From an uncultured Candidatus Saccharibacteria bacterium (GTDB lineage Bacteria > Patescibacteriota > WWE3 > 2-01-FULL-39-13): a stretch of DNA of 64,000 bases. The stretch lies in contig CAYJKF010000001.1 in assembly GCA_964370865.1 (NCBI GenBank), forward strand, positions 35,703-99,702, written 5' to 3'. The number at the start of each line of letters is the position of its first letter. The first letter of the stretch is position 1. The notes beneath the pieces are model-generated. The model was given only the letters and a program-made list of their open reading frames with translations. It had not been told where the DNA came from and made no database searches. The translations under genes were made by a program, and so were the position numbers. Shown piece after piece: positions 17,617 to 42,203 of this stretch.

Positions 17617-17645
17617 ATTATAGTGCAGTAAGGCCGTTTTGTCAA
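17617..17645 (-). promoter_or_regulatory. Consensus sigma70-type promoter (TTGACA-N17-TATAAT) about 40 nt upstream of the LPKTG protein gene
   Basis: The reverse complement reads cctatagcTTGACAaaacggccttactgcacTATAAT. The CTATAG element abuts the -35 box, as in the other cassette promoters. Confidence 0.6.
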
Positions 17646-17660
17646 GCTATAGGACGAGCC

Positions 17661-20600
17661 CTACGTTTTGTACCACAGCACACCAGATATGGTGAAAAGG
17701 CTTAGGATAAGCCAATATCCGATATACTGTAAATATTGCGGAACATATAATATTACATAAGAGGTCGATACTGGGACGAAAATCCATGAATTTGCCCAAT
17801 TATTGGCGACAAAATGCTCTGTAAATACTCGTCTACAAGTAAATGGCGTAGTAATGCCAAACCAGCATGAATCGGCCTCATATAAATTCCACCCGTCTTC
17901 GAACGATTGATTTAAAACTAATACAGCTTTTCCTGGTTTTGAGCTAGAACCTTCCACTTTATAACGAGTCTTTCCCGATTTAACAACATTTGTAATTGCA
18001 TAGGAGTTATCTACATATTTGTGCTCTTTTGTCATTATCGTTAATCCTTTAATAAAGCTATATGGAATTGGTGTAAAAGTGAGATCAGATAGAATGTTTT
18101 CAGAAGGAACTTTGCCAATTGAGTGATTACTAATCCTAAGGTTTAATGGCTCGACGTCGTTATAAGGCGGAACAACTATCGCGTGCGTTCCTGTTAATAG
18201 TCTTTCGGTAAATAAGCATTTTTGAATTCTCTCGGAGTATAAGCACACATCTAATCCCTTTCCAGAAATATTTTGATTAGTAATTTGTACAAGGGCTCCG
18301 GATGATAAGTCTACCTCGCTCAAATCCAAATTATCACAAGAGATTGCGTCGATAGCCCTATATCTAAAATTTCCAGTTATTGGATCTAGCTCTCGCGCAA
18401 ACTCTTCCTCATTATATAAATCACAATTTCTTGAATCTGAATTAAAATCATACAGATTAGGACGAAATACCTTAGAATATTTTTCTATTTCAGGAAAAGT
18501 AATCTTCACAGGAAACTGAGAATTATTAATTTGAATCGTGTAAGGTGACGTGTCGTGATTAGATCCAAAACCCGTACTACCTGTGGCTCGGTATTTTTTA
18601 ACTTCGATATTTTTATATTCCACATTTTGAGTTTCATTTTTGTCTGATGACTCGTTTATCAAAACTAACCTGTATTCACCTGTTTTGAAAACTTCCACAT
18701 AGTCTTCGTATGTTTTATATTTTTCACTCTTTGCAGGAGCGTTTTTATATTTTTCATTTGCGCACTCTCCAGTGACTACATTCTCAATACAATAAATTGC
18801 CTTACCCCCAGAAGTAGTCATGTATTCAAAATGAGTGCTTACAATATCACCTCGGGTCAAAGCAAAACCGTCGTCGAATTTCAAACAAATGTTACGATCA
18901 TAACTTGATAAAACAACACTTCCAGGATATTTACCAATTGATTTTCCAAATGATCCATCCCCACCAAAACAATCCGTTGGTTCGGCAGACGCAACAGAAT
19001 TACTAAATGGATATTCGGCAACTGGCGTCTCATTATAGAACACAAAATTTGGATATGAATTAGAGGTCAGAATAATAGTTTCTTTTTCTCTGAGTTTCTT
19101 TCCATTGATTACAACTCCAATACCAGATGGAACTGAGGTAGAAGTTTTTTTAGTCTGGCCATCTCCATATAATCGTAAATCTTGCCCAGAGGAATCAGTT
19201 ATTACAGGAATCACATCCTCTAAAGTCAAAACGCCTTGAAACAGGTTAACTTTAAGTGGCCACCTACCAAAATCATTAAATCCAAATTGTATCTGCAAAT
19301 TTTCGCCTATAAAATTTTCGTTATATGGAATCTCGAGCGAATTTTCGTTTACGAGTTTAATACTGCTATCATCGGCAAATGGGTATTCAATATCGATTTC
19401 ACTTAATTTCGAATCTAAAGAATATAAATGGGCAACGTTTGAATTTTTATAATACACAGGATCAACTTGGCTATCTTTATATGATTCCCCTGTAATCAAA
19501 TATTTTTGCGGTGCATAAATATCATTACTTACTTCTGAATTTAGATTATTTTCATATTGCCTAGTTGGATATTTTTTAACATATGTATATACACTTAGGT
19601 TATCTTTTTCTGTTAATAAAACGAATTCGAAATCTTCGCTTACCAACTCTTTCATTTTTTGACTATTTACCGAGTTAGGAGAACCAGGAGATATTACAGA
19701 ATCATCAAACATTATTTCAGTTACTCCATATTTCTCAAAAACGAATTTTATTTGTTCGATATTATTTGTGTAGTAAGCATATTGATATTCGTTGTAGAAA
19801 TCCTCGTTTGTTGGAAACCACCTATCAAATTCTCTATCCAGTACAGGATTTTTAGATAAAAACCAAATAAATCCTGCGCCTTGATAAGACGCGTCAACCT
19901 CGTTATCTCTAATCCAGTCATAATATACCCATCCAAAAATGCTATTTGGTGGAGCAGTCGCTACTCTTCTTCCCTCTTCTTTATTTAGTTCATCAAATAC
20001 TTGAAAATATGAATCTGGAATTTTAACTTTAACAATATCGCCAATCAAAAATCCTCTGAATGCTGGGATAAAATAATACGTAAGCAAAATAACTGGGATA
20101 ATTTTTAATATTAGATTGATTTTATCAATCTTGATTTTTTCAAGAAAGTTTAAGAAGAAAAACCCAACAAAAACTGAAAGGCTTAGCATTAGTGGAATCG
20201 AAAACTTCGTATATGGAAACCTTAATGCCTCTTTAATAAGTGGCAACCTATTTTGCATGAAGCCAAACAGAAAACCGAGTGGTGGAGATGTCATTAATAA
20301 GAAAAATACAGAAAGAAAGATAATCGGTAGAAAATATTTAACCTGACTATTAGATGATTTTTTTAGAGAGGTGAAAATAATTCCACCAATGGATAAAGCA
20401 AAAAACAGATATCCGATAACAATCGCGAAAGTCCTAAAATAAAATGCATTCCATTCGACAAAGATACTGTTGAAACTTTCATTTCCAACATGTACTTTCC
20501 AGTTGAATAGATAACCTTTAAGTACCGCTATATTTTGTATGTTCGCGTACTCTAGATTATTCAATATTCCCTCATCACTAACTAGGCTTGTAATCTTAGC

Positions 20601-21380
20601 GTTAGCTACCTCGTCGGCATGATTTGCGGTGAAATATAAAGTCGGTAAAAGCCAATATGAATTTAGTATTAAGGTCGTGACGATTAAAACTGTTACTCTT
20701 TTTAAGCGACTTTGTTTGTTGATTCCTTTTTCAAGAAGAAAAAACATTAGTGCAAAAACCGAAAGCATCATAAAATTTACAAACCAAAGCGTTGGAGTGT
20801 GAGACATCGGCATGGAAAAGAAAGTTACGACAGTATATAAAAGAAAAGTTTTAGGTGACGGATTTTTTAGAAAAAGTAATGCTGTTAAAAATATCCATCC
20901 TATAAAACCGTATAAAGTTGCAAACATTTCAAGTGGAGCAAAAAATGTTTGTAATGTTCCTAGATTTAATAGATAGAACAATCCGCCTATAAAAGCAGCA
21001 TATTTGTAATTATTTTTTCCCTTAAATAAATGGGTTAGCAAATAATAAATCCCGAGTGGTCCAATAATTAGCATTGTGAAAAAATATGCCCATCTTAAAA
21101 AATGTGTTGGAAAGAATATATCGAGTGCCTGCATGTAAAGTACCCTTGGAATTTCTGATGCGTGTGCTTGAGTCGCGACTGCTCCAAGTCCCTGGTGATC
21201 CTGCCATACACTTTGCAAAACTCGTTCCCAATAAATAGAGAAATTCATTTCGGGGTGCAGAGTATCCCAGCCGCTAAGCCATGTTCCTGTCTTATAATTT
21301 GCAATACATAATACAATCGCAAAGCTAGCTAAAAGGAGAGGAAAGAAAATCTTAGGCAGTTCAATTTTCATTCTATTCAA
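17661..21380 (-). CDS. Very large polytopic membrane protein (about 500-aa multi-TM N-terminal domain plus about 700-aa extracytoplasmic domain), putative glycosyltransferase/envelope biogenesis protein
   Basis: A 1239-aa ORF with many predicted TM helices in the first approximately 520 residues and a large soluble domain after them. It overlaps the upstream GT-C-like gene by 8 nt. Confidence 0.5.
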   Translation of the reverse strand: MNRMKIELPKIFFPLLLASFAIVLCIANYKTGTWLSGWDTLHPEMNFSIYWERVLQSVWQDHQGLGAVATQAHASEIPRVLYMQALDIFFPTHFLRWAYFFTMLIIGPLGIYYLLTHLFKGKNNYKYAAFIGGLFYLLNLGTLQTFFAPLEMFATLYGFIGWIFLTALLFLKNPSPKTFLLYTVVTFFSMPMSHTPTLWFVNFMMLSVFALMFFLLEKGINKQSRLKRVTVLIVTTLILNSYWLLPTLYFTANHADEVANAKITSLVSDEGILNNLEYANIQNIAVLKGYLFNWKVHVGNESFNSIFVEWNAFYFRTFAIVIGYLFFALSIGGIIFTSLKKSSNSQVKYFLPIIFLSVFFLLMTSPPLGFLFGFMQNRLPLIKEALRFPYTKFSIPLMLSLSVFVGFFFLNFLEKIKIDKINLILKIIPVILLTYYFIPAFRGFLIGDIVKVKIPDSYFQVFDELNKEEGRRVATAPPNSIFGWVYYDWIRDNEVDASYQGAGFIWFLSKNPVLDREFDRWFPTNEDFYNEYQYAYYTNNIEQIKFVFEKYGVTEIMFDDSVISPGSPNSVNSQKMKELVSEDFEFVLLTEKDNLSVYTYVKKYPTRQYENNLNSEVSNDIYAPQKYLITGESYKDSQVDPVYYKNSNVAHLYSLDSKLSEIDIEYPFADDSSIKLVNENSLEIPYNENFIGENLQIQFGFNDFGRWPLKVNLFQGVLTLEDVIPVITDSSGQDLRLYGDGQTKKTSTSVPSGIGVVINGKKLREKETIILTSNSYPNFVFYNETPVAEYPFSNSVASAEPTDCFGGDGSFGKSIGKYPGSVVLSSYDRNICLKFDDGFALTRGDIVSTHFEYMTTSGGKAIYCIENVVTGECANEKYKNAPAKSEKYKTYEDYVEVFKTGEYRLVLINESSDKNETQNVEYKNIEVKKYRATGSTGFGSNHDTSPYTIQINNSQFPVKITFPEIEKYSKVFRPNLYDFNSDSRNCDLYNEEEFARELDPITGNFRYRAIDAISCDNLDLSEVDLSSGALVQITNQNISGKGLDVCLYSERIQKCLFTERLLTGTHAIVVPPYNDVEPLNLRISNHSIGKVPSENILSDLTFTPIPYSFIKGLTIMTKEHKYVDNSYAITNVVKSGKTRYKVEGSSSKPGKAVLVLNQSFEDGWNLYEADSCWFGITTPFTCRRVFTEHFVANNWANSWIFVPVSTSYVILYVPQYLQYIGYWLILSLFTISGVLWYKT

Positions 21381-23523: not shown

Positions 23524-23557
23524 CCTTCCAAATCAGTTTGAAAGACTCTTAAATGCG

Positions 23558-23640
23558 TGAGGCGGGGTAGAGTGTTTTGAATAGTGTTTTGATTGGAAAA
23601 ATCCCAGTCAAATCTTTTTCGAACACTCTGCCCGCCTCAT
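23558..23640. repeat. Long imperfect inverted repeat (about 18-bp stem with a 45-nt loop) at the left edge of GC-rich patch 1, followed by a second hairpin
   Basis: The arms are tgaggcggggtagagtgtt and aacactctgcccgcctca. The second hairpin, gtagctc...gagctac, lies at about 23650-23682. Confidence 0.5.
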
Positions 23641-23704
23641 TTGTAGCTCCGCTACCTCACGGTATGAGAGCTACTCCCAACGCATCTTGGCCTAGTCGGC
23701 GAGA

Positions 23705-24754
23705 TTAGTCTTCGATGAAGACCTCGCTGACAGTTCTGCTGCCGTTGTCGCTCTCGCGTGTTTTCCACTCAGCGAGTGTTTCGACTGACGGTCGACTTTC
23801 GAACGCGCAAGCGTACATGTGTGCCGTTCCCTCGGAACTATATCCAAGACCTTCGATCTGGACGTTCTGCCCCGGTTGGACAAGCAAGAGAACACGATCT
23901 CCGTACTGAACTTGATTCACACGTGCGGGATCCATCCCTGCCAAGACCCACAGGTCACTGTTGACGACCACCATGTCAGCTTGCGGATTATCGTATCCCA
24001 CAAGGAATGATGTGTCGTCTGGAACACATGTGACTACTGGTACTTCTTCGGTAACTTCAACTGCCGTATCTGCAGGCACCTCGACCGGGATGGTCTCGAT
24101 GACTGTTGAGGTTGTCGCCGCTGTTGCGGTGACGACGGTTGTTGCCACTGTGGCGAGGGCCACGACGGCGCCGGTGCGATGATCCACGACATCCACAACA
24201 TACGATACATTGTCTGACTGTGCCTGACGACGTTGCTCGATTGTGACCGGCGAAAGCATGTTGCTGCATTCGGGATAGGCATTAACGCTACCTGATGGCG
24301 ACAGAAGAGTCACCACGCGATAGGCACCTGGCCCCAAAAGCAGAACAGCAGACTTGCCACTCGACAGAGTAGCTCCGGTTAGCAGATCGTACAAAGTGTA
24401 AGGATCGGTCGTGACGATGCACTCATATGACTGTGGAACAACCATCGTGCCATCGCCGAGAGCCCAACCTGGCATGATTTGGTTTTGACCAAGAGTCGGA
24501 TATGCCGGACTTTTTGGCTCAACCGAAACCAAGACGATAGGAACTGCAGGGACTTCTGCGATGAGGAGAGTATTAGTCTCAACCTCGGACGCCTCAACAA
24601 CAGGCTCACCCTCGACCGGGATGGTCTCGGACTTGACTGTCGTGGCACTGTCACTGGTCGTAACTTGGGCTGGGGCCGAAGCCGGAGCCGGTGTCGCGCA
24701 TGCTGACAGAACCAACAAAACAACAAACAAACTACCTACAAGAAACTTGTTCAT
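23705..24754 (-). CDS. Secreted lipoprotein, hypothetical (GC-rich gene)
   Basis: A signal peptide with a lipobox (LVLSAC). The mature part is rich in V, T, A, P and E. The signal-peptide codons are AT-rich, but the mature part uses GC-ending codons (gtc, acc, ccg, atc). Confidence 0.6.
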   Translation of the reverse strand: MNKFLVGSLFVVLLVLSACATPAPASAPAQVTTSDSATTVKSETIPVEGEPVVEASEVETNTLLIAEVPAVPIVLVSVEPKSPAYPTLGQNQIMPGWALGDGTMVVPQSYECIVTTDPYTLYDLLTGATLSSGKSAVLLLGPGAYRVVTLLSPSGSVNAYPECSNMLSPVTIEQRRQAQSDNVSYVVDVVDHRTGAVVALATVATTVVTATAATTSTVIETIPVEVPADTAVEVTEEVPVVTCVPDDTSFLVGYDNPQADMVVVNSDLWVLAGMDPARVNQVQYGDRVLLLVQPGQNVQIEGLGYSSEGTAHMYACAFESRPSVETLAEWKTRESDNGSRTVSEVFIED

Positions 24755-24971
24755 CTTATTCCTCCTCGGAATTTTACTGCAAGACCTGCAAGGTTGTTGT
24801 TGTAAACACAGAGATGCTGGGGGACAAAAAGACTCTCCAAACTAAATTGAAGCTCCTATTTGTCCGCCAACATTCTTTTATTAAATGCGTTGGGAATGAT
24901 TCATATCTAAGTAATCCTCATCAGCAATAGATGAATCTACAAAAGATAAAATCAAGTTATTTTAAAGTTCA

Positions 24972-25022
24972 ATGGCATGCTATATGCCATCAAATTGAAG
25001 TCAACGAATAAATTCCTTGACT
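24972..25022. promoter_or_regulatory. Perfect palindrome ATGGCAT-N5-ATGCCAT next to copy 1 of the W motif (gtcaacgaataaattccttgact), upstream of the lipoprotein gene
   Basis: Read directly from the sequence. The W motif recurs at 27126-27148 and, in partial form, at 29410-29421. Confidence 0.4.
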
Positions 25023-25124
25023 CATTCAAAGTTTCGATTTCTCGAAAGCTTGAATGATCTGCGGCGGCGTTTATAGGTATTTGTAATTCGAGACAGAGTC
25101 CCTACCGATAAACGTCGCCGCTAG

Positions 25125-25331
25125 TCAGATCAGTGCCAGCCACTCCAGAATCACGATGCTGGCGACTATTACTACTACTAGTACAACGACAGCGAGGACG
25201 ATCTTGACGACCATCCTGGCGACATTCGGCCTCCAAAGTGCTCCTGTAAGGAGCAAGAAAGCCAAAAGACTCGAAGCGAGAATGATACTCGCATTGAGCC
25301 GGAGATACTCAACCATCCAATCTTGATTCAT
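25125..25331 (-). CDS. Small two-TM membrane protein, hypothetical (GC-rich)
   Basis: A 68-aa protein with two hydrophobic helices. It lies downstream of promoter X-A. Confidence 0.45.
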   Translation of the reverse strand: MNQDWMVEYLRLNASIILASSLLAFLLLTGALWRPNVARMVVKIVLAVVVLVVVIVASIVILEWLALI

Positions 25332-25560
25332 GGTCTACTCCCTATTCTGGTAAGTGATTACTGCACGATTGCCGAATGTAAAAGGATTCGACTCCTCTTA
25401 TATCCGACAACCGTTCTGATCTGCTATTTTTTAGTAAATGTGCTCTAGTATTTCTACTAGTTGTGTAAATCAACAAAGGCAATCTTTATTGACTCCTTTA
25501 GAACAAAAAATAATTTTTATCCTAAGGGATAAGGTGGTACTTTCTCTCAAAAGTGTGTCG

Positions 25561-25590
25561 ATTATACTATAGGGCCCCTACTTTTGTCAA
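25561..25590 (-). promoter_or_regulatory. Promoter X-A (cctataggaTTGACA-N18-TATAAT)
   Basis: The reverse complement of 25561-25598 reads cctataggATTGACAaaagtaggggccctatagTATAAT. The CTATAGG/CCTATAG inverted repeat brackets the spacer. Confidence 0.55.
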
Positions 25591-25659
25591 TCCTATAGGT
25601 CGCTTAAATTAAGAATAACCACCTTATATAATGTGCTTCCAACGATTGAAACAATCCTT

Positions 25660-25701
25660 GGATTGTAAAAAGGATCTGTGTCCTGCCCAGTCACAAATCC
25701 T
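25660..25701 (-). terminator. Terminator module Y-A (11-bp stem hairpin plus a U-run on the minus strand), downstream of gene 25851-26900
   Basis: The minus strand reads aaggatttgtg-actgggcagga-cacagatcctt followed by tttacaa. Confidence 0.55.
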
Positions 25702-25850
25702 TATACAAATCATTAATAAGTCTCAACTTACTTTTACCTTCGACTTAGATGTCAAAAACAAAAGTAAATTGGATCCAGAAAGAAATTAAAAAGTGTTGTG
25801 TGCGTGCTTGTTAGCATGCTCTTTTTAATCCTTCCTGGATCCATGGTTGT

Positions 25851-26900
25851 CTAGCGGGCGACGAAGGCGAGGTGAATCTTGTATGGAGAGAAGAAAAACT
25901 TCTGGAAATACATCCGTAGAGGCGACCGATCAGGGTCAAAAACGAGTTCGATTGTCTCAAACTCATACTCAACCACTACTAGGTCAACATCTTGGAAATT
26001 CTTCCAGAACTTTCCATCCACGTATACGTTGACCGACTCGACTTTGCAGCCAAAATTCAACTGTAAGTTGTTTCCATCCATTGTCCACAAGAAATTCGTG
26101 GGATGAGGTGTACTACAACTTGTAGGCGGTGGGGTGACACTGGGTGTCGGGAACACAACGAGTGTTGCAGTTGGCGATGGCGACGGTGTTGAGGTGGGAG
26201 CTGGTTCAATAGACCCAAATAGTTCTTCCCAAGTCAAATAGACCTTGGAATTTTGACCATCTGGATCAATCGCGAGCTCCATATCAACCACAAAATCCGA
26301 TTTGTTCACACGAACGACACCACCAGCCTCACTTCGGACAAATTCACCATCAAGATACAGATTTGCAATTTTGTTGCAGTCCCATCTGATGATGACTTCA
26401 TCCTCTACCACTTCCCATAATGAAAGACATACAACGGGAACCTCGGTTTCCGTTGGTGTTACCGTCATGGTAGAGACTGCTGTTGGTGAAATTGTTGGGT
26501 TGGGTGTCACCGGAACTAGATCCAGAAACAAGTAAACCTGATTGTCAGTCTCGTCTGTCTCAACAATCAAATTGTCTGGATCGAGCACGACTTCCAAACT
26601 TGTTTCTGGGCATCCCCGCACCAACAAAATCTCCGTTGGCGAAACCTCATTTCGACCAATATTTGTGTAATGGTCGAATTCCCCATCAACGTAGATATGA
26701 ACGATGATAGTGGCCTCTATCAATTCTGGGTTCTGAACTGCAAATTCCAAAATGACGAAGCACTGATCATCATGCGAAACAATATTAAACGTCCCGACTG
26801 AAATATTCGGAAGAGTCTCCGCCCGAACAACCGACACGGTCAAGCCTATAACCATAACAAGCGCCATGGCGACCAAGAACAAACTACACATCTTCTTCAT
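25851..26900 (-). CDS. Secreted protein with three internal approximately 100-aa repeats joined by Pro/Thr-rich linkers, hypothetical
   Basis: A signal peptide. The motifs HIYVDGEFDH, LYLDGEFVRSE and NVYVDGKFWKN recur, each followed by a DPD motif. PT-rich linkers separate the repeats. Confidence 0.6.
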   Translation of the reverse strand: MKKMCSLFLVAMALVMVIGLTVSVVRAETLPNISVGTFNIVSHDDQCFVILEFAVQNPELIEATIIVHIYVDGEFDHYTNIGRNEVSPTEILLVRGCPETSLEVVLDPDNLIVETDETDNQVYLFLDLVPVTPNPTISPTAVSTMTVTPTETEVPVVCLSLWEVVEDEVIIRWDCNKIANLYLDGEFVRSEAGGVVRVNKSDFVVDMELAIDPDGQNSKVYLTWEELFGSIEPAPTSTPSPSPTATLVVFPTPSVTPPPTSCSTPHPTNFLWTMDGNNLQLNFGCKVESVNVYVDGKFWKNFQDVDLVVVEYEFETIELVFDPDRSPLRMYFQKFFFSPYKIHLAFVAR

Positions 26901-27145
26901 GTTATCTCCTTGTGATAGTGTTGCGAAACAACCAAATAGAAAGCCATTTAAGCTACCTATTAGGTTGTTCCACAGAAACTAACCAAAGAGAATTTTCCGC
27001 TAGACTATTGTCAATATGAAACATATCCTTCTCCGCTTATGGATTGGAAAATTTCATACTATATTAATGTTCGATGAGTAAACTCATCAATATAAACCTA
27101 AGAAGCAAATTCTTCGGTTCATTCAGTCAACGAATAAATTCCTTG

Positions 27146-27187
27146 ACTTGTAAAAAGGATTCGTGTCCTGCCCAGTCACGAATCCTT
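27146..27187 (-). terminator. Terminator module Y-B (near-identical copy of Y-A), immediately preceded by W motif copy 2
   Basis: The minus strand reads aaggattcgtg-actgggcagga-cacgaatcctt followed by tttacaag. The stem is perfect. Confidence 0.55.
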
Positions 27188-27325
27188 ATACAAAAGTTGC
27201 GAACTGTCTAGTGTACTATTTAATTGTTATAAGTCTAGAGAATATTTTAGGCAGGGCGGGTTGCGATGAATCAGATTTGGGCCTGCGTAAAATAATCCTC
27301 TGTAATTCAATTGCGCGGCAAGTAT
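27150..27325 (-). ncRNA. Candidate approximately 170-nt small transcript or attenuator leader between promoter X-B and terminator Y-B
   Basis: A near-consensus promoter sits at 27321-27349 (minus strand). An intrinsic terminator follows about 130 nt downstream at 27146-27187. No convincing ORF lies between them. The next gene starts about 250 nt beyond the terminator. Confidence 0.35.
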
Positions 27326-27349
27326 ACTATAGGACTATATTTTTGTCAA
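27321..27349 (-). promoter_or_regulatory. Promoter X-B (cctctaggaTTGACA-N17-TATACT)
   Basis: The reverse complement reads cctctaggATTGACAaaaatatagtcctatagTATACT. Confidence 0.5.
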
Positions 27350-27458
27350 TCCTAGAGGTAAACCAATCCGCAGTTTAGAAGCTCAATTACCGCCAAATTC
27401 CTCTGCTATAGGTTTTGACAACATTGGATATTTATGCTAAATTTCAAGCACTAAAACC

Positions 27459-27493: not shown

Positions 27494-27502
27494 TTAAAAT
27501 AA

Positions 27503-28036
27503 ATGCCCAAAACAAGAACAACAATACTAATAGATGGCAGCAACTTCTACTTCAAACTAAAGGAGCTTAAACTTCACAACCTACTGAAATTCAACTTTGC
27601 TGAATTTGCTAGAGACCTGGCGGGAAAAGACCAAATTATCACCACAAACTACTATGTAGGAGCAGTCAAAACTGATGGAACACCAGCTATGCAAAAGAAC
27701 TTCGATAACCAACGTAAACTACTATCCCACCTTAAAAAACAAAAAATTAACTACACACTAGGATATTTATTAAAAACAGACGGAAAATTACACGAAAAAG
27801 GCGTAGATGTGCAGATTGCCGTTGATATTCTCGTCACGGCATATGAGAAAATCGCTGATCATATAATCATAATATCTTCAGATACCGACCTAGAACCAGC
27901 CATAAAGAAAGCCATCTCTAAAGGAGTCACCATAGAATATATTGGCTTTAAACACCAGCCTAGCCTAGCAATGAAGAGATTTTGTAATAAATATAAGTTG
28001 CTAGAGAAAAAGTACCTTAAGAAATATATAAAATAA
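27503..28036 (+). CDS. NYN/LabA-like domain protein (putative RNase)
   Basis: Motifs ILIDGSN, GVDVQIAVDIL and ISSDTDLEPAI are typical of NYN/LabA (DUF88). Confidence 0.7.
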   Translation: MPKTRTTILIDGSNFYFKLKELKLHNLLKFNFAEFARDLAGKDQIITTNYYVGAVKTDGTPAMQKNFDNQRKLLSHLKKQKINYTLGYLLKTDGKLHEKGVDVQIAVDILVTAYEKIADHIIIISSDTDLEPAIKKAISKGVTIEYIGFKHQPSLAMKRFCNKYKLLEKKYLKKYIK

Positions 28037-28039
28037 CAA

Positions 28040-28594: not shown

Positions 28595-28620
28595 GGCGAT
28601 AAGTACTAAATAAGAACTCT

Positions 28621-31841: not shown

Positions 31842-31947
31842 AAATTGTAAAACCCATTATATACTATAGGAATAATGAAACGTACTTACATCAACCAAAT
31901 CTCAAAATATATTGGACAAGAGATGTTAAACGATTGACACCACAATC

Positions 31948-33879: not shown

Positions 33880-33891
33880 AATATTCGTAAA

Positions 33892-35466: not shown

Positions 35467-35472
35467 ATTATT

Positions 35473-36651: not shown

Positions 36652-36707
36652 CCTTTTATTCTAACAGATAGGGTCCGCTCGTGTCATTGGTCGGGACACC
36701 TTTTCTT

Positions 36708-37181
36708 TTACCAAATGATAAACATTAGCCAAACAAAGAGAACTAGCGTTATAACGAATTTAAGGGCAATACCGCTAATGTAACCTATAACTGTACCGAG
36801 CGAGGCTTTCATGGCTTTCTCGATATCTTTTTTATCGAGTAATTCTGATATAAAAACGCCTAGAAACGCTCCAATTATTGCACCGAGTGGAAAGAATAAT
36901 ACAAATCCAATTAAGCCTCCAATTATTGAGGCTCCGATCCCTCTTGAGTTCGCACCGTATTTTTTGGCGCCTAGTAGAATTGCTAGATTATCTATAAAAA
37001 GTGAAATTATAGTTACAACTGCAAAAGAAATATAAACAAAGTTTGGAACGATGACACCTTCCTCAAAGAGTCCGTAGATTATTAATCCAAGTAAGACTAA
37101 AAAGATACCAGGAAAACCTAGCACAGCGACTCCCAATCCAAATAAGCTTATGAGGGTTATAAGAATCTGTATTTCGTACAT
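36708..37181 (-). CDS. Small polytopic membrane protein (DUF456-like)
   Basis: A 157-aa protein with four hydrophobic helices. Confidence 0.4.
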   Translation of the reverse strand: MYEIQILITLISLFGLGVAVLGFPGIFLVLLGLIIYGLFEEGVIVPNFVYISFAVVTIISLFIDNLAILLGAKKYGANSRGIGASIIGGLIGFVLFFPLGAIIGAFLGVFISELLDKKDIEKAMKASLGTVIGYISGIALKFVITLVLFVWLMFIIW

Positions 37182-37194
37182 ATTATCTTTAAAA

Positions 37195-39048
37195 TTATTC
37201 TAGCACAGCCTTTATTCTTCTAACTCCTTTTGCAACAGCTTCTTCTTTTAAAATTTTAAAGTGACCAAGTTCTGAAGTATTTCCTACATGTGGTCCACCG
37301 CAAAATTCTTTTGACCATGCCGATTCGATTGTTTCTCCAACATAATAAACGTTTACCATGTCTGCATATTTTTCACTAAAAAAATGAATTGCACCAGTCG
37401 CCTCGGCTTCTTTTATTGGAAGAACAACTTTATTCATTGGAAGTTTTTCTGAAATTTTTTGATTTACGAGTTGTTCGACTAACGCAATTTGTTCCACGGT
37501 CATCTTTTCATTATGCGAAAAATCAAAACGCAATCTTTCTGGCGTAATATTACTTCCCATTTGTCCAACATGTGTTCCTAATATTTCTCTAAGTGCGCTG
37601 TGTAATAAATGGGTAGCTGTATGAAGTTTTGTTGTTTCATAGGAATGGTCACCAAGCCCTCCTTTAAATCTATCACCCATATTTGCACGAGATTTTTCTT
37701 GATGCTCTTCGAGTTGTTTTTCGAAATCAGTAAAATCTACTTCTAAATTTAATTCTTTAGCGAGATTTTCAATTAAATCTTTTGAAGCGCCTTGTGATTG
37801 GTAAATATCAAATGGATTGTCGATTTTAGATAAAGCTTTGTTTACATATGTATGTGTTATAAAATTTCTTGTTCGATTAAATACTTCTTTATATAAATTA
37901 ACTTCATCGTTTATAACTTTAAAAATATGCGCCGTGTTATCAAGTTCTGGATAGATGTGTTTGTTTTTTTCAATAACCATTAATGCTATCTGATCAATTT
38001 GATCTGGGTTTATATATAGGTTCCACAGGCATTCATCAAATATCCTTCTTATAAGTCTTCTTAATACATATCCTTGATCTTTGTTTGATGGATATAAATT
38101 TTCAGCAATCAAAAAAGTTACAGTTCTAATATGGTCAGCGACCCTTTGAACTCCTGTTTTAATAGTTGTTTGCTCAATTGTAGTTGGATTTACTAAAGCG
38201 TCTTGAATTTTTTCGGATTCAGAACTTAAAGCAATTATTTTATTTATTATTTCGGAAAAAACATCTGTTTCATAAACAGAATCCACGTGCTGAATAAGTG
38301 TTGTCATTCGCTCAAGGCCTGAACCGGTATCAACAGATAAAGCAGGAAGTGGAGTTAGTTTTCCATCTTCTCCACGATTAAATTGCATAAAAACTCCTGC
38401 ATTCCAAATTTCTAAGTATCTTGGATTATCAGTTAGTCCTGGTCGATCTTCTTTTGGACCAAATTCTTCTCCTCTATCATATAAAACTTCAGTGCAGGGA
38501 CCACATGGACCAACGGGACCTGGAGCCCACCAATTTTCACTCCCTGGCAATTTTGAAATGTGAGATTCAGGTACTCCAACTGATTTCCATGCCTCAATGG
38601 TTTCAGTATCTTCGGGGCATTCTTCGTTTCCTTCAAAAACAGTCGGACGGAATTTTGTAGCATCAAATCCGAATCCGTATTCTTTGTTTGTTAACAAATC
38701 AAATGCAAACTGAATGGCTTCTTTTTTGCCATAATCTCCAATTGACCAGTTACCAAGCATTTCGAAAAATGTAAGGTGATATTTACTTGTTCCAACAATA
38801 TCTAAATCTCCAGTTCTAATACATTTCTGTGAGCTACAAAGTCTCTTCGAACCAAAATCTTTCTCGGCATCCCTCTCACCTAAAAAATAAGGCGTAAATT
38901 GAACCATTCCAGAATTTGTAAAAAGCAATGTTGGATGATTTTCGGGAATAAGTTTACTCGATGAAACCTCAATATGAGGATATCCACGTTCAGCCAAAAC
39001 CTTAACAAAATAATCAATAAATCTCTTACGGATTTCAGTAGATGTCAT
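37195..39048 (-). CDS. alaS: Alanine--tRNA ligase (short form lacking the C-terminal domain)
   Basis: An N-terminus MTSTEIRKRFIDYFVKVLAERGYPHIEVSSSKLIP...LLFTNSGM, the class II core, and an editing-domain HxxxH motif (TATHLLHSALR). The longer ORF in the track, ending at 39210, overlaps the conserved repeat, so M55 is the more likely start. Confidence 0.8.
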   Translation of the reverse strand: MTSTEIRKRFIDYFVKVLAERGYPHIEVSSSKLIPENHPTLLFTNSGMVQFTPYFLGERDAEKDFGSKRLCSSQKCIRTGDLDIVGTSKYHLTFFEMLGNWSIGDYGKKEAIQFAFDLLTNKEYGFGFDATKFRPTVFEGNEECPEDTETIEAWKSVGVPESHISKLPGSENWWAPGPVGPCGPCTEVLYDRGEEFGPKEDRPGLTDNPRYLEIWNAGVFMQFNRGEDGKLTPLPALSVDTGSGLERMTTLIQHVDSVYETDVFSEIINKIIALSSESEKIQDALVNPTTIEQTTIKTGVQRVADHIRTVTFLIAENLYPSNKDQGYVLRRLIRRIFDECLWNLYINPDQIDQIALMVIEKNKHIYPELDNTAHIFKVINDEVNLYKEVFNRTRNFITHTYVNKALSKIDNPFDIYQSQGASKDLIENLAKELNLEVDFTDFEKQLEEHQEKSRANMGDRFKGGLGDHSYETTKLHTATHLLHSALREILGTHVGQMGSNITPERLRFDFSHNEKMTVEQIALVEQLVNQKISEKLPMNKVVLPIKEAEATGAIHFFSEKYADMVNVYYVGETIESAWSKEFCGGPHVGNTSELGHFKILKEEAVAKGVRRIKAVLE

Positions 39049-39082
39049 GAAGGTATTATATAGGATTTTGTCTTTGGAAAAA

Positions 39083-39207
39083 GGGTACTGCGGCTGATAG
39101 GGTGAAAGAAAAAGTTTTGTATTCAAAAGAATACATGTTTTGGTCGAAATGACCGAAACAGATCTATGAAGATCAACTTTTCTCTCAACCCTATCAGCTT
39201 TTTTTAT
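39083..39207 (+). ncRNA. Structured repeat element copy 1 (candidate small RNA). It has a long closing stem, two internal perfect hairpins and a T7 run.
   Basis: The outer stem is gctgatagggtgaaagaaaaagtt / aacttttctctcaaccctatcagc. Inside are the hairpins gtattc-aaaa-gaatac and ggtc-gaaat-gacc. The element ends in TTTTTTT. A -10-like TATTATAT lies about 25 nt upstream. A second copy, about 90% identical, is at 40312-40437. The strand assignment is tentative. Confidence 0.4.
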
Positions 39208-39310
39208 CAAATGAATTCATTTTATTTTTCTTAGCACGATTGCCAAGAATTTTTTTACTATTTTAATGCGGTAAAGCTATGTAAACAACTCCTCGCGGAA
39301 TTGTTAAAAA

Positions 39311-39345
39311 GAAGCAGAACCCGGGACGGGGGTTCTTTTCTTTGT
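39311..39345. terminator. Bidirectional intrinsic terminator hairpin (agaaccc-ggga-c-gggggttct, flanked by an A-run and a T-run) after gene 39348-39875
   Basis: Read directly from the sequence. Confidence 0.6.
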
Positions 39346-39347
39346 GT

Positions 39348-39875
39348 TCATCGCTTTACCGCGAGGACGACATGGAGTCCTCCATTGCTGGAGCTCCCGG
39401 CAACCCAAAGTTTAGCACGAGGCTGTTCGGTACTTGGATCAAGCCAAGTATAAGTTTGCCCTGGCCAAACAATCCATCCATCTACAAAGACTTCCGAGAC
39501 AACTGTGCCTTCCTTCCCGTAGGGAGGAGTCATCCGGATGAATAACTCATCCTTCATGATTCCATAACCTATGAGGTCGGCTTCTATGTTGTACTGATCG
39601 AGGACGGGGAAGCCCTTGTCGATTGGAAACAACTCTGGCATACGGCCAGGTAATGCTGGAAGATTTTGGATAACATACATGTTGACTGGGCTATACCCAA
39701 CTTGGAGTATCTCCCAATTCTCGTCCGCCGTAGGAAGCGCTGTCAGTGTCGATACTTCAGTTGGCATCTCCATAGAAGTCGATGGAAGTGCTTCCCCGAC
39801 TCTTTCGGATACTTTGCATACCAAAAAAGATATCAACAGTCCAACACACACCAAAAATCCCAGTAGCTTACTCAT
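39348..39875 (-). CDS. Secreted hypothetical protein (cassette copy 1; moderately GC-enriched)
   Basis: A signal peptide (MSKLLGFLVCVGLLISFLVC). The C-terminal segment EVFVDGWIVWPGQT resembles EVFLNGIPVEPGIT in the gene at 40579-41811. An AGGAGG ribosome-binding site lies upstream. Confidence 0.55.
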   Translation of the reverse strand: MSKLLGFLVCVGLLISFLVCKVSERVGEALPSTSMEMPTEVSTLTALPTADENWEILQVGYSPVNMYVIQNLPALPGRMPELFPIDKGFPVLDQYNIEADLIGYGIMKDELFIRMTPPYGKEGTVVSEVFVDGWIVWPGQTYTWLDPSTEQPRAKLWVAGSSSNGGLHVVLAVKR

Positions 39876-39944
39876 CTAGTACCTCCTAGGTACTTAAACA
39901 CCAGTGGATTATTAAGGTGCATCGCGATAAATTGCGATTTGATT

Positions 39945-40006
39945 CTCTTTCCCCAAAAGCTGGATTCCTCGCACCACGAGAGGTTTCCTTGGGCGTCCCG
40001 AAAGAG
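39945..40006 (-). promoter_or_regulatory. Conserved multi-stem 5' leader element (copy 1) in the long leader of gene 39348-39875
   Basis: On the sense strand the stems are P1 cucuuuc/gaaagag, P1b cccaa/uuggg and the hairpin cucg-uggu-cgag. The same three helices are preserved in copy 2 (41888-41955) despite loop and linker differences. Confidence 0.4.
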
Positions 40007-40184
40007 CAAACAACCAGATAATGACTTATGTCGCTGTCTAGTTGCTTACTTATTCAAGACTAAAAGAAAAATATCCCTAAGAATTCATTTTATTATTAAT
40101 GTACTCGAAACATCGTTAGCAAAGCCTATTTGCACCGTGTTGTCGAAAGATGTTCAGCTTGAAATGTTTTAAGCAGAACGCCTA

Positions 40185-40219
40185 ATTATATCGCAAATTA
40201 GCACAAACTCAACCTATAG
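40185..40219 (-). promoter_or_regulatory. Cassette promoter, copy 1 (ctataggTTGAGT-N16-TATAAT)
   Basis: The reverse complement reads ctataggTTGAGTttgtgctaatttgcgaTATAAT. Confidence 0.5.
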
Positions 40220-40311
40220 TAATCTAGCCAGGCTCGATTACTTGGTCAAAATTTTCTTCAATTTTTGCTGATGTCAGGATGATGTTATATAGATTTTTAT
40301 ATTGTGAGAAA

Positions 40312-40437
40312 GGGTACTGCGGCTGATAGGGTGAAAGAAAAAGTTTTGTATTCAAAAGAATACAATGTTTTGGTCGAAATGACCGAAACAGATCTTAAAT
40401 GATCAACTTTCCTCTCAGCCCTATCAGCTTTCTTTGA
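40312..40437 (+). ncRNA. Structured repeat element copy 2 (candidate small RNA)
   Basis: It has the same stem/hairpin architecture as copy 1. It is preceded by an extended -10-like TGtTATATA. Confidence 0.4.
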
Positions 40438-40578
40438 ATCAAATGAATTAATTTATTTTTCTTAGCACGATTGCCAAGAAATTTTTCTTTCTACAGCAAC
40501 TGCTATATGAACAATTCCTCACGGAACTGTTAGAAAGAAGCAGAACCCGGGACGGGGGCTCGACTTCTCTTCTCATCT

Positions 40579-41811
40579 CTACCTTGCGGTAGGGACGAGG
40601 GGTGATTCAGCGGTGCCCGCAAGGCTTGTTTGCCCTGGGCAAAGTGACAGCTGGAAAGCTCTCCCGACGATGAGGACATCTCCTCGAACTATGTCGTCAT
40701 AGCGAACTTTTAGGACCCAATTGTCTCCCCACCTCGTGATACCTGGTTCAACCGGAATGCCGTTCAAGAACACCTCTTGAATGAAGAATACATTCTCCTG
40801 GTTGAACTGAACAATATGGACCTGAATGAGATCTCCACCATTAGTGAGGTCAAATAGGCCCTCGCCATGCAAAGACCACTCTGGTCCTTCTACTTCTTCC
40901 TGCCAGGAAGTCTCAACTGCAGACGTCGTGATGACGCTGACGTAGGGATCTCCCGAACCACGGACGAGGTAACATTTCTCGCCATCATCAGGCTCCGGAG
41001 TTGATGTTGCCTCGACGTTGGGCATTGGTGTTGGAATTTCCGTAGGTTGTTCTGTGGGAACTTCCGTTGGTTGTTCTGTAGGAACTTCCGTTGGTTGTTC
41101 TGTGGGAACTTCCGTTGGTTGTTCTGTAGGAACTTCCGTTGGCTGTTCTGTAGGAACTTCCGTTGGCTGTTCTGTGGGAACTTTCGTTGGTTGTTCTGTA
41201 GGAACTTCCGTTGGCTGTTCTGTGGGAACTACCGTTGGCTCGTCTGTTGGGACTGCCGTTGGTTCGTCTGTTGGGACTACCGTTGGCTCGTCTGTCGGGA
41301 CTGCTGTTGGCTCGTCTGTTGGGACTGCCGTTGGTTCGTCCGTCGGGACTGCCGTTGGTTCGTCCGTCGGGACTGCCGTTGGCTCGTCTGTTGGGACTAC
41401 CGTTGGCTCGTCTGTTGGGACTACCGTTGGCTCGTCGTCTGTTGGGACTGCCGTTGGTTCGTCTGTTGGGACTTCTGTACACTCTGGTGTGGGAACTTGA
41501 GTAGGAACCTCTGTCGGCTTCGGGGTTTTTGTGGGTTTATCACCACCACACCAACCTTCGTTACCATCGGCTCTATCTTCATCGTTACCACATCCATTAT
41601 TATCGTGTGGCTTTCCCTCCCCAGGATCAGGTGTGCCTTGATCTCGATCTGGCCCATGACCATCATTGTCTGGCTCGTTGAAACCTCGGGTCGGCTCCGG
41701 CAAAGGAGAATCCTTCGATCCATTTGCACTCACCACACGAGGAAGCATTATCATTGTGCCAAGCAAGGCCACAATAATAATTACACTGAATACCGCAAAC
41801 AACTTGCGCAT
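40579..41811 (-). CDS. Secreted protein with a long (PTDEPTAV)n/(PTEQPTEV)n Pro/Thr-rich tandem-repeat region (cassette copy 2; GC-rich)
   Basis: A signal peptide, an acidic Gly/Asp-rich N-terminal region, about 20 eight-residue repeats and a C-terminal globular part. It has the same flanking leader and 3' repeat elements as copy 1. Confidence 0.65.
   Translation of the reverse strand: MRKLFAVFSVIIIVALLGTMIMLPRVVSANGSKDSPLPEPTRGFNEPDNDGHGPDRDQGTPDPGEGKPHDNNGCGNDEDRADGNEGWCGGDKPTKTPKPTEVPTQVPTPECTEVPTDEPTAVPTDDEPTVVPTDEPTVVPTDEPTAVPTDEPTAVPTDEPTAVPTDEPTAVPTDEPTVVPTDEPTAVPTDEPTVVPTEQPTEVPTEQPTKVPTEQPTEVPTEQPTEVPTEQPTEVPTEQPTEVPTEQPTEVPTEQPTEIPTPMPNVEATSTPEPDDGEKCYLVRGSGDPYVSVITTSAVETSWQEEVEGPEWSLHGEGLFDLTNGGDLIQVHIVQFNQENVFFIQEVFLNGIPVEPGITRWGDNWVLKVRYDDIVRGDVLIVGRAFQLSLCPGQTSLAGTAESPLVPTAR
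41018..41500. repeat. 24-bp coding tandem-repeat array (about 20 units, two subfamilies) inside gene 40579-41811
   Basis: Units such as ggaacttccgttggttgttctgtg and ggactgccgttggttcgtctgtt repeat head to tail. They translate on the minus strand to VPTEQPTE and VPTDEPTA. Confidence 0.85.
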
Positions 41812-41887
41812 GGGAATTTTCCCTCCTTTGCGCTAAAAACTTGACCTAACGTTACCAATAGTGCATCGCTTTCGCGATTCTGATTCC

Positions 41888-41955
41888 TCTTTCCCCCCAA
41901 AAAACTGGATCCTCGCACTACGAGAGAGATCACTTGGGTTTGTCCCGAAAGAGAG
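41888..41955 (-). promoter_or_regulatory. Conserved multi-stem 5' leader element (copy 2)
   Basis: See copy 1. Confidence 0.4.
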
Positions 41956-42168
41956 AGCGATAAGATAACGATCGTTATCTTTACCTTATTGCTCAATCCT
42001 TAGGAAATATAGAAAGAAAAATATCCCTTTAAAATATTAAATTCATTTGATTGTTAAGGTACGTCATTTGAAGGGATTATTATAAGCGAAGCATCTTCGC
42101 TCGTATTTCTTCAAATCGAGTTCAGACACATGTTATATAGAATATATAGCAGGGTAAGAACAAGGCCT

Positions 42169-42203
42169 ATTATACTACATTTTTAGTATAAATCAACCTA
42201 TAG
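42169..42203 (-). promoter_or_regulatory. Cassette promoter, copy 2 (ctataggTTGATT-N16-TATAAT)
   Basis: The reverse complement reads ctataggTTGATTtatactaaaaatgtagTATAAT. Confidence 0.5.

What the first reader, a model, noticed from the sequence alone, without database searches (positions are those of the whole stretch)
17617..42203. Shared promoter architecture CTATAG(G)-TTGAnn-N16-18-TATAAT upstream of surface and secreted protein genes
Five near-consensus sigma70 promoters on the minus strand carry the same CTATAG(G) element abutting the -35 box. They are at 17617-17645, 25561-25590, 27321-27349, 40185-40219 and 42169-42203. They serve the LPKTG protein, the 68-aa TM protein, the 3-repeat secreted protein or a small RNA, and the two cassette genes. 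In promoter X-A the CTATAGG/CCTATAG inverted repeat brackets the spacer, which looks like an operator. This points to a co-regulated surface or secretome regulon with a dedicated transcription-factor site.
Basis: seen in the sequence. Interest (0 to 1): 0.55.

Follow-up and report, generated by a model that had tools for sequence, protein, structure and literature searches.

The report
Conserved palindrome box in surface-gene promoters
A short palindromic DNA box (CCTATAGG) sits against or inside the strongest promoters of cell-surface, secreted-protein and glycosyltransferase genes in this uncultivated Patescibacteria bacterium and its relatives; it is most likely the docking site of an unidentified regulator that controls these envelope genes together.

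Summary
All five minus-strand promoters are at the stated coordinates, and I found a sixth on the plus strand (27406-27443, NYN gene). CTATAG is not over-represented in the window (13 copies, 13.2 expected). However, 7 of the 13 copies lie in fixed register with near-consensus -35/-10 pairs, against 0.06 expected.

Comparative data show it is functional. The orthologous LPXTG/CLIPPER surface-protein gene keeps CCTATAG(G/C) in 20 of 24 related Patescibacteria contigs (34-99% protein identity) while flanking bases diverge. The box lies either 0-2 nt upstream of TTGACA or inside the 17-nt spacer (TTGACA-N6-CCTATAGG-N3-TAnnnT).

The box also precedes glycosyltransferase operons and orphan secreted-protein genes. 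It is absent from the housekeeping promoters checked: rpoB, rny, hup, rpsT and alaS.

Two positions, palindromy and gene-set specificity favour a dimeric transcription-factor operator, probably for a repressor, over a basal promoter element. No factor is identified.

Caveats: P4 and P5 are paralogues. The second copy abutting the -10 in P2 and P3 resembles a TATAG-TATAAT arrangement that is common in phage promoters, including T7 A1.

This is a new regulon candidate of a familiar kind, in a phylum whose transcriptional control is essentially unstudied.

The parts
17617..17653 (-). P1: CCTATAGC box (17653-17646), then TTGACA, 17-nt spacer, TATAAT. Promoter of the LPKTG/CLIPPER gene.
   Evidence: Orthologues keep the box in L108, L310, L312, L223 and L226.
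16860..17567 (-). Target gene: 235-aa sortase-anchored (HLPKTG) surface protein with a DUF11/CLIPPER isopeptide domain.
   Evidence: PMC12617251 was retrieved with the search terms DUF11 and CLIPPER.
25561..25599 (-). P2: CCTATAGG (25599-25592), one base, TTGACA, 18-nt spacer whose last 7 nt are CCTATAG (25573-25567), TATAAT.
25125..25331 (-). First ORF after P2: a 68-aa membrane protein, reached after a 229-nt leader. The 349-aa lipoprotein gene 23705-24754 follows on the same strand.
27321..27358 (-). P3: CCTCTAGG (27358-27351), one base, TTGACA, 17-nt spacer ending in CCTATAG (27333-27327), TATACT.
   Evidence: A homologous module with CCTATAGC is at L226 1404-1441.
25851..26900 (-). Target of P3: a 349-aa signal-peptide protein, GC-rich with a P/T linker, reached through a 420-nt leader that contains a hairpin followed by a U-run (27187-27150).
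27406..27443 (+). P6 (new): CTATAGG, tt, TTGACA, 17-nt spacer (with TGc), TAAATT. It is divergent from P3 and precedes the NYN-domain gene 27503-28036.
40185..40220 (-). P4: ACTATAGG, TTGAGT, 16-nt spacer, TATAAT. A 309-nt leader follows, then the 175-aa orphan secreted protein gene (39348-39875).
42169..42204 (-). P5: ACTATAGG, TTGATT, 16-nt spacer, TATAAT. A 357-nt leader follows, then the 410-aa PT-repeat secreted protein gene (40579-41811). P5 is a paralogue of P4.

Best explanation
CCTATAG(G/C) is the core of a palindromic operator. In some relatives it extends to ATCCTATAGGAT or CATCCTATAGGATG. I propose that a sequence-specific, probably dimeric, transcription factor of this Patescibacteria clade binds it. 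The box is embedded in intrinsically strong sigma70-type promoters and overlaps the RNA polymerase footprint. It sits either just upstream of the -35 (centre near -40) or inside the spacer (about -23 to -16), and P2 and P3 carry a copy at both places.

The promoters are already near-consensus, and the site tolerates two positions roughly two helical turns apart. The most likely mechanism is therefore repression by occlusion. On this model one regulator holds a set of envelope genes under common control: the sortase-anchored CLIPPER protein, orphan secreted or membrane proteins, and glycosyltransferase operons.

Shown: the element exists, its position is non-random, it is conserved across species, and it is restricted to a gene set.
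Inferred: protein binding, the sign of regulation, and co-regulation.
For: 1. Placement in the window. Seven CTATAG copies are in promoter register, against 0.06 expected. These promoters are the best sigma70 matches in the window.

2. Phylogenetic footprint at one orthologous gene. Of 24 CLIPPER promoters at 34-99% protein identity, 20 have an exact CTATAG in register. Three have one-base variants (CCTATAAG, CCTATAAT). One (L311) shows none. The spacer and flanks vary freely. In the 12 spacer-type sites, spacer columns 8-12 are invariant and columns 7, 13 and 14 are conserved in 10-11 of 12, whereas columns 1-6 vary freely.

3. Position histogram. Among 222 promoter-like sites in non-redundant clade loci (about 0.47 Mb before duplicate contigs were removed), CCTATAGG with at most 1 mismatch peaks only at -10 to -8 (16 sites), +12 (13 sites) and +15 to +17 (4 sites) relative to the -35 start.

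4. The same gene carries the box upstream of the -35 in the window's subclade and in the spacer in sister groups. This is the behaviour expected of an operator, not of a fixed RNA polymerase contact.

5. Non-homologous targets share it: a GT2 operon (L223 1771, L228 5388), GT4 (L250 680), secreted orphans (window P2-P5, L226 1404, L243 1492, L228 3259, L310 721).

6. Housekeeping promoters lack it: rpoB in the window and in L223, and rny, hup, rpsT and alaS in the window. In a distant relative, tRNA promoters are of the extended -10 type with no -35 and no box.

7. The box upstream of the -35 is not a general promoter feature. In viral contigs it gave 45 sequence clusters, against 21 and 32 for two controls.

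8. Some phages carry two or three CCTATAGG copies around one promoter (L292, L300, L057). This shows the same palindrome used in a classic multi-operator layout.
Against: - No binding protein is identified. The only obvious regulator nearby, the wHTH gene at 10927-11508, is also conserved in lineages that mostly lack the box.
- In the clade loci examined, 12 of 16 intergenic promoters scoring at least 11/12 carry the box. A link to promoter strength as such is therefore not excluded.
- The copy abutting the -10 in P2 and P3 matches a TATAG-TATAAT arrangement that is common in phage consensus promoters and present in T7 A1, which needs no factor.
- Boxes upstream of the -35 often end in C or T rather than G, so they are imperfect palindromes.
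- The sample is biased towards CLIPPER loci because the related loci were fetched with that gene.
- No transcription start-site or expression data are available.
Confidence: 0.55

Rival explanations
1. Intrinsic promoter element. RNA polymerase holoenzyme (sigma region 3 or 4, alpha-CTD, beta-prime zipper) or local DNA flexibility recognises CCTATAG directly. The box would boost promoter strength with no dedicated regulator.
For: The box accompanies the best promoters: 12 of 16 intergenic promoters scoring at least 11/12 have it. TATAG directly before TATAAT is over-represented in phage consensus promoters (4 of 135 background promoters; 54 hits against 0 for the control) and occurs in the factor-independent T7 A1 promoter.
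Against: The same 8-mer works at two places, about -40 and about -20, and its gap to the -35 varies from 0 to 2 nt. It is palindromic, up to 14 bp. The rpoB promoter (11/12) lacks it in two species. The box upstream of the -35 is not enriched in phage promoters. Promoters that already have perfect hexamers gain little from an enhancer.
Confidence: 0.17
2. Activator site. A class II type activator bound at about -40.5 touches sigma region 4 and switches the envelope genes on.
For: The box upstream of the -35 is centred near -40 and abuts the -35. P4 and P5 have weaker -35 hexamers (TTGAGT, TTGATT). The upstream and spacer positions are about 20-22 bp apart, so they face the same side of the helix.
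Against: Most sites flank perfect TTGACA and TATAAT hexamers, which should not need activation. A site at -23 to -16 inside a 17-nt spacer is not a known activator position, except for MerR-type regulators, which need 19-20-nt spacers.
Confidence: 0.15
3. Shared ancestry only. The boxes are relics of promoter or cassette duplication and have no function of their own.
For: P4 and P5 are clearly paralogous, together with their leaders and a roughly 300-bp flanking duplication. P2 and P3 are about 75% identical over 45 nt.
Against: The box persists at orthologous promoters down to 34% protein identity while adjacent positions are randomised. It changes position between subclades. It occurs at unrelated genes, including glycosyltransferases, CLIPPER and orphans.
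Confidence: 0.04
4. Epigenetic switch. A DNA methyltransferase that targets CTATAG or CCTATAGG modifies the promoter and produces phase-variable expression of surface proteins.
For: The core is a 6-8-bp palindrome typical of methyltransferase targets. The targets are surface proteins. 11 of 13 CTATAG copies in the window are intergenic.
Against: No restriction-modification or orphan methyltransferase with this specificity was found; the methyltransferases in the window look like HemK and TehB types. The palindrome extends to 12-14 bp in several species, which fits a helix-turn-helix dimer better. The total hexamer count is as expected, so there is no sign of avoidance.
Confidence: 0.05

Closest known systems
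Repressor operators that overlap core promoter elements (LexA SOS boxes, TetR/tetO, phage cI/Cro operators)
   Same: A short palindromic site lies inside the RNA polymerase footprint of otherwise strong promoters. Several promoters share it, sometimes with two copies per promoter. The position relative to the -35 and -10 is flexible.
   Different: The sequence CCTATAGG matches no operator I know of (own knowledge; literature search). The 8-bp core is shorter than most helix-turn-helix operators. No cognate repressor gene is identified. The organism is an uncultivated Patescibacteria member.
MetJ met-boxes (8-bp palindromic AGACGTCT repeats bound by a ribbon-helix-helix dimer)
   Same: An 8-bp palindromic unit that occurs in one to several copies within promoters of a regulon (own knowledge).
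   Different: Met-boxes are tandemly abutting. Here the copies are about 25 bp apart or single. The sequence is unrelated, and no ribbon-helix-helix gene has been linked to it.
Class II CRP/FNR-type activator sites (centred at -41.5)
   Same: The box upstream of the -35 is centred near -40 and abuts the -35.
   Different: CRP/FNR sites are 22 bp long and accompany weak -35 hexamers. Here the -35 is consensus, and the same box also occurs in the spacer.
Phage T7 A1 promoter (TTGACT-taaagtctaaCCTATAG-GATACT)
   Same: It has an identical CCTATAG heptamer ending the 17-nt spacer, as in P2, P3, L223 1771, L228 3259 and L310 721.
   Different: T7 A1 has no box upstream of its -35 and is factor-independent in E. 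coli. The resemblance concerns only the copy next to the -10 and may reflect a general TATAG-TATAAT preference.

Membership tests
Sigma70-type (housekeeping) bacterial promoter | -35 TTGACA-like and -10 TATAAT-like hexamers separated by 16-18 nt | tested here: met
   The hexamers match consensus at 10-12 of 12 positions, with spacers of 16-18 nt, at all six sites.
Sigma70-type (housekeeping) bacterial promoter | Transcription starts 6-8 nt downstream of the -10 | not testable with these tools
   No transcriptome or 5'-end data are available. Only a conserved CACATTAA box at the expected +1 of CLIPPER promoters was seen.
Transcription-factor operator / regulon | The motif is conserved at orthologous promoters while the flanks diverge (phylogenetic footprint) | tested here: met
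   20 of 24 CLIPPER promoters at 34% identity or more have an exact CTATAG in register. Spacer columns 8-12 are invariant and columns 7, 13 and 14 are conserved in 10-11 of 12.
Transcription-factor operator / regulon | The motif is shared by non-homologous genes of related function and absent from unrelated promoters | tested here: met
   CLIPPER, GT2/GT4 and secreted orphans carry it; rpoB, rny, hup, rpsT and alaS do not. The sample is limited to about 0.47 Mb and is biased towards CLIPPER loci.
Transcription-factor operator / regulon | A cognate DNA-binding protein binds the site | not testable with these tools
   The only candidate is the conserved wHTH gene at 10927-11508. No binding data exist.
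UP element | An A/T-rich tract at -40 to -60 contacted by the alpha-CTD | tested here: not met
   The box has conserved C/G flanks, is palindromic, and also occurs inside the spacer.
MerR-type spacer operator | A dyad in an over-long (19-20 nt) spacer | tested here: not met
   The spacers are 16-18 nt.
Class II activator site | A site centred at -41.5 with a poor -35 hexamer | tested here: inconclusive
   The upstream boxes are centred near -40, but the -35 is consensus at most sites, and the spacer-type sites do not fit.
Invertible promoter (inverton) | Inverted repeats flank a promoter segment of about 100 bp or more, with a recombinase nearby | tested here: not met
   The two copies in P2 and P3 are only 17-18 nt apart, inside one promoter. 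None of the window ORFs scanned against Pfam (the larger part of the gene list) matched a recombinase family.

The most novel reading that the evidence does not exclude
The CCTATAGG box is one part of a lineage-specific expression system for envelope proteins in Patescibacteria. On this reading it is a promoter box read by an RNA-polymerase-associated factor, not a classical repressor. It acts together with conserved leader-RNA modules: a hairpin with an invariant GGGCAGGA loop, and a hairpin followed by a CACAUUAA box that coincides with the +1 of leaderless-type CLIPPER promoters. Together these would couple transcription, RNA processing and translation of surface glycoproteins.
Probability: 0.12. 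Interest if true: 0.75.

Novelty: new member of a known kind. Interest (0 to 1): 0.55.

Why it matters
Two literature searches returned no study of this motif or of promoters and transcription start sites in Patescibacteria (CPR). These organisms are uncultivated, have tiny genomes and very few regulators, and depend on their cell surface to attach to hosts.

A conserved operator-like box would be a concrete, testable entry point. It links the sortase-anchored isopeptide-domain protein, glycosyltransferase operons and fast-evolving secreted proteins. It defines a candidate envelope regulon. It predicts exact transcription start sites. It also gives a bait sequence for finding the regulator by DAP-seq, EMSA or pull-down. 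The near-consensus promoters may be useful parts for future CPR genetics.

Tried and rejected
- Known RNA families. Rfam found nothing at gathering thresholds for the whole window and nothing credible at E up to 5 around the cassettes. There are no tRNA genes in the window.
- A universal promoter feature. The pattern with the box upstream of the -35 was scanned in viral contigs and gave only about 1.4-2 times more sequence clusters than two controls. I rejected it as a general feature. The spacer pattern gave 30 hits against 7, but only about 12 families.
- Tandem upstream promoter. I considered TATAGG acting as the -10 of an overlapping promoter. No -35 lies at the right distance in P1 (read directly from the sequences); the other upstream-box sites were not checked in detail.
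- T7-type single-subunit RNA polymerase promoter. CTATAGG resembles the T7 initiation region, but nothing is conserved upstream of the 8-mer.
- Genome-wide test in the source genome. This was not possible.
- Homologues of the 175-aa cassette protein. There are none, so it is an orphan.
- Literature. Searches for the motif and for Patescibacteria promoters gave nothing relevant.
- Finding the regulator. Remaining window ORFs were scanned against Pfam. Besides RecX and HU, only one wHTH protein turned up. It cannot be tied to the box.


Full report
CONTEXT. The window has about 35% GC and encodes RpoB, SecDF, RecF, AlaRS, RNase J, RecA, PilM/PilO-like proteins, a sortase and an LCP protein. Its RecF and NYN proteins occur in NCBI records named only 'Patescibacteria group bacterium'. 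The same species is assembled in many ENA samples, for example a 405-kb contig. The only GTDB relative found is a Patescibacteria MAG.

THE OBSERVATION. The details are:
- P1: gtCCTATAGC-TTGACA-17-TATAAT
- P2: aCCTATAGGa-TTGACA-18-TATAAT
- P3: aCCTCTAGGa-TTGACA-17-TATACT
- P4: tACTATAGG-TTGAGT-16-TATAAT
- P5: tACTATAGG-TTGATT-16-TATAAT

In P2 and P3 the spacer also ends in CCTATAG, directly abutting the -10. A regular-expression scan found a sixth case on the plus strand: CTATAGGtt-TTGACA-17(TGc)-TAAATT at 27406-27443. It is divergent from P3 and precedes the NYN gene.

The hexamer CTATAG itself is not enriched (13 copies against 13.2 expected). However, 7 of the 13 copies lie in register with promoter-like sites scoring at least 10/12. 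The mean was 0.06 and the maximum 1 in 500 Markov simulations. Four of the five TTGAnn-N16-18-TATAAT matches in the entire window carry it. The sites are the top hits of the independent promoter scan. A relaxed search (promoter score at least 8, box with at most 1 mismatch) adds no further convincing site in the window.

INDEPENDENCE. P4 and P5 are paralogues. Their promoters, their roughly 300-nt leaders and a roughly 300-bp flanking duplication (39032-39335 and 40261-40561, comprising a terminator and the 5' end of alaS) all align. The window therefore holds about four or five independent cases.

COMPARATIVE EVIDENCE. I collected homologues of the LPKTG/CLIPPER protein and fetched their loci. 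I also scanned metagenome contigs with an alignment of these proteins and obtained 41 loci.

In the nearest relatives the box stays just upstream of the -35 while the surrounding sequence changes:
- L108: CCTATAGC-TTGACA
- L310: gCTATAGG-TTGACA
- L312: CCTATAGC-TTGACA
- L223: CCTATAGC-TTGACA
- L226: CCTATAGCAC-TTGACT
- L250: CCTATAGtc-TTGACT

In sister lineages (34-55% protein identity) the same gene has the box inside the spacer at a fixed place, TTGACA-N6-CCTATAGG-N3-TAnnnT. This holds for L228, L229, L230/L238, L232, L233, L234, L240, L243, L245, L248, L251 and L252. In 12 such sites, spacer columns 8-12 are invariant and columns 7, 13 and 14 are conserved in 10-11 of 12, whereas columns 1-6 vary freely. 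In several species the dyad extends to ATCCTATAGGAT or CATCCTATAGGATG.

Of the 24 CLIPPER promoters at 34% identity or more, the tally is:
- 20 have an exact CTATAG in register.
- 3 have one-base variants.
- 1 (L311) shows none; that contig starts only 6 nt upstream of the -35.

More distant orthologues (29-33% identity, higher GC) mostly lack the box or carry variants such as CCTATAAT or CTTATAAT before the -35.

Across about 0.47 Mb of clade sequence there are 98 CTATAG copies, and 32 distinct ones sit in promoters scoring at least 10. The position histogram of CCTATAGG (at most 1 mismatch) over 222 promoter-like sites in the non-redundant loci has peaks only at -10 to -8 (16 sites), +12 (13 sites) and +15 to +17 (4 sites) relative to the -35 start.

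TARGETS. Besides CLIPPER genes, the box precedes:
- GT2-led operons that include the roughly 1240-aa membrane protein (L223 1771, L228 5388)
- a GT4 gene (L250 680)
- signal-peptide or transmembrane orphans (window P2-P5, L226 1404, L243 1492, L228 3259, L310 721)
- a few unknowns, and NYN

The 175-aa P4 product has no homologue in 5.8 billion proteins.

Near-consensus promoters without the box serve housekeeping genes. These are rpoB (TTGACA-17-TATATT, in both the window and L223), and rny, hup, rpsT and alaS in the window. In a distant relative, four tRNA operons use tttTGcTAtAAT promoters with no -35 and no box. The element therefore marks a gene set and not promoters in general. One caution applies: 12 of the 16 strongest intergenic promoters in the sampled loci do carry it.

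IS IT A GENERAL PROMOTER FEATURE? I used viral contigs as a large outside sample of strong promoters.
- Box upstream of the -35: 104 hits in 45 clusters. A shifted-spacing control gave 61 hits in 21 clusters, and a permuted control (CTTAAGG) gave 57 hits in 32 clusters. There is no meaningful enrichment.
- Box in the spacer at +12: 30 hits (about 12 families) against 7 for the control. The enrichment is modest. Several phages have two or three CCTATAGG copies around one promoter (L292, L300, also L057), which is a classic operator layout.
- Copy abutting the -10 (TTGACA-N10-CCTATAG-TATAAT): 54 hits with 32 distinct spacers, against 0 for the control.
- In a background sample of 135 distinct phage consensus promoters, 4 end their spacer in TATAG.
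- T7 A1 has exactly this heptamer.

The second, -10-proximal copy in P2 and P3 may therefore partly reflect a general TATAG-TATAAT preference. It should not be over-read as an operator half.

MECHANISM. Five features fit a dimeric DNA-binding regulator better than a polymerase contact:
- the dyad symmetry
- a variable gap to the -35 (0-2 nt)
- occasional double sites
- restriction to envelope genes

Because nearly all carrier promoters have perfect or near-perfect hexamers, repression by occlusion is the more economical reading. Activation from about -40 cannot be excluded, and P4 and P5 have weaker -35 boxes. The factor is unknown. The only evident regulator in the neighbourhood is a wHTH protein (10927-11508) conserved upstream of secDF, 5-9 kb from the CLIPPER gene. 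It is present in lineages with and without the box, so it is only a candidate.

COMPARISON WITH KNOWN SYSTEMS. The element works like a repressor operator that overlaps a core promoter, as with LexA, TetR, phage cI or MetJ boxes. It is not an UP element, a MerR-type site or an inverton; those features were tested and not met. Literature searches found no report of this motif or of Patescibacteria promoter architecture. PMC12617251 was retrieved with the search terms DUF11 and CLIPPER.

OTHER FEATURES SEEN. The long leaders behind these promoters share modules. One is a hairpin with an invariant GGGCAGGA loop and fully covarying stems (window 27187-27155 and 25702-25670; L226, L228 twice, L250 twice). 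Another is a hairpin followed by (G)CACATTAA. This box also sits at the predicted +1 of CLIPPER promoters. The first 175 nt of the P3 transcript fold with z = -2.98 and end in that hairpin plus a U-run. These features suggest an additional RNA-level layer, which I did not resolve.

VERDICT. The regulon and operator interpretation is the best-supported reading, but it rests on comparative inference only. It is a new example of a familiar kind of element, in a phylum where such knowledge is lacking.

Noticed in passing
window 27187-27155 (-) and 25702-25670 (-); L226 1568; L228 175 and 246; L250 760 and 2039: A hairpin family with an invariant loop, NNNGGGCAGGA (one copy has GGCAGGA), and completely different, fully paired stems of 7-11 bp. 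The hairpins lie in leaders or intergenic regions near the box promoters. The two window copies are followed by a U-run and so look like terminators; the copies in L226 and L250 are not. There is no Rfam match.
   Followed up: partly
window 27071-27064, 25442-25435, 39920-39912, 41864-41856 and 17613-17606 (all - strand); L226 1696; L228 2333 and 3394; L250 2153 and 3476; L310 774: A stem-loop immediately followed by (G)CACATTAA recurs 45-170 nt upstream of the start codons in the long leaders. The box is degenerate in P4 (GCACCTTAA) and P5 (GCACTATTG). The same box sits at the predicted +1 of CLIPPER promoters. It may be a processing site or a 5'-end signal.
   Followed up: partly
window 39032-39335 and 40261-40561: A roughly 300-bp direct duplication at 86-97% identity. 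It covers a terminator, the alaS promoter and the first ~180 nt of alaS. It brackets the P4 cassette, which implies tandem duplication of a promoter-leader-gene-terminator unit between recF and alaS.
   Followed up: partly
window 40957-41484: A 24-nt tandem array encoding 8-aa P/T repeats inside the 410-aa secreted protein. The gene is 418, 370 or 410 aa long in different assemblies of the same species, so repeat number varies.
   Followed up: partly
window 54872-54879 (- strand), 31864-31871, 61507-61512, 63185-63190: The remaining intergenic CTATAG copies. One is ACTATAGG-actag-TATAGC, 7 nt before the ORF-listed ATG (54845) of the sortase gene (20 nt before an in-frame ATG at 54832), with no recognisable -35. 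One lies between the divergent 232-aa and YbaK-like genes. One is in the rny 5' region. One is 13 nt upstream of the hup -35. In total 11 of 13 copies in the window are intergenic.
   Followed up: partly
window 23705-26900 and 39348-41811: Islands of 45-47% GC in a 35% GC genome. They encode signal-peptide or lipoprotein products rich in P, T, V and A. The 175-aa product has no homologue in 5.8 billion proteins. L226 has an analogous GC-rich, PT-linker gene next to its NYN gene.
   Followed up: partly
viral loci L313-L366; T7 A1 sequence in PMC5660091: TTGACA-N10-CCTATAG-TATAAT occurs in 54 viral contigs with 32 distinct spacers, against 0 for a CCTTAAG control. Four of 135 background phage consensus promoters end their spacer in TATAG. 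T7 A1 has the same heptamer. In some phages (L318, L343, L330) an upstream TAGGnn and a spacer nnCCTA form a covarying hairpin around the -35.
   Followed up: partly
viral loci L292, L300, L057: Phage promoters with two or three copies of (TA)CCTATAGG(TA) or CCCTATAGGG. The copies lie upstream of the -35, in the spacer and just after the -10, which is a typical multi-operator arrangement using the same palindrome.
   Followed up: no
window 10927-11508 (-): A 193-aa wHTH (ArsR/TrmB/HVO_A0114-like) protein gene immediately upstream of secD-secF. It is conserved in this position in L108, L223, L226, L228, L235, L241, L243, L250, L256 and L270. It is the only obvious transcription factor near the CLIPPER locus.
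   Followed up: partly
window 17568-17616 and the orthologous 5' UTRs (L223, L226, L228, L230, L310-L312): The CLIPPER genes examined (window, L108, L223, L226, L228, L230, L310-L312) lack a GGAGG Shine-Dalgarno sequence. They share a conserved ...ctgccc...aaag...TGCC-ATG context, unlike the cassette genes, which have a strong Shine-Dalgarno sequence.
   Followed up: no
L261 2160-2290, 8760-8891, 15300-15426, 17545-17674: Four tRNA operons in a distant Patescibacteria relative have T-rich extended -10 promoters (tttTGcTAtAAT) with no -35. These contrast with the TTGACA-containing envelope promoters.
   Followed up: no
window 25603-25632 (+): A weak divergent promoter-like site (CTTAAA-18-TATAAT) shares the P2 palindrome. 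It would give an antisense transcript across the hairpin and the 3' end of the 349-aa gene.
   Followed up: no
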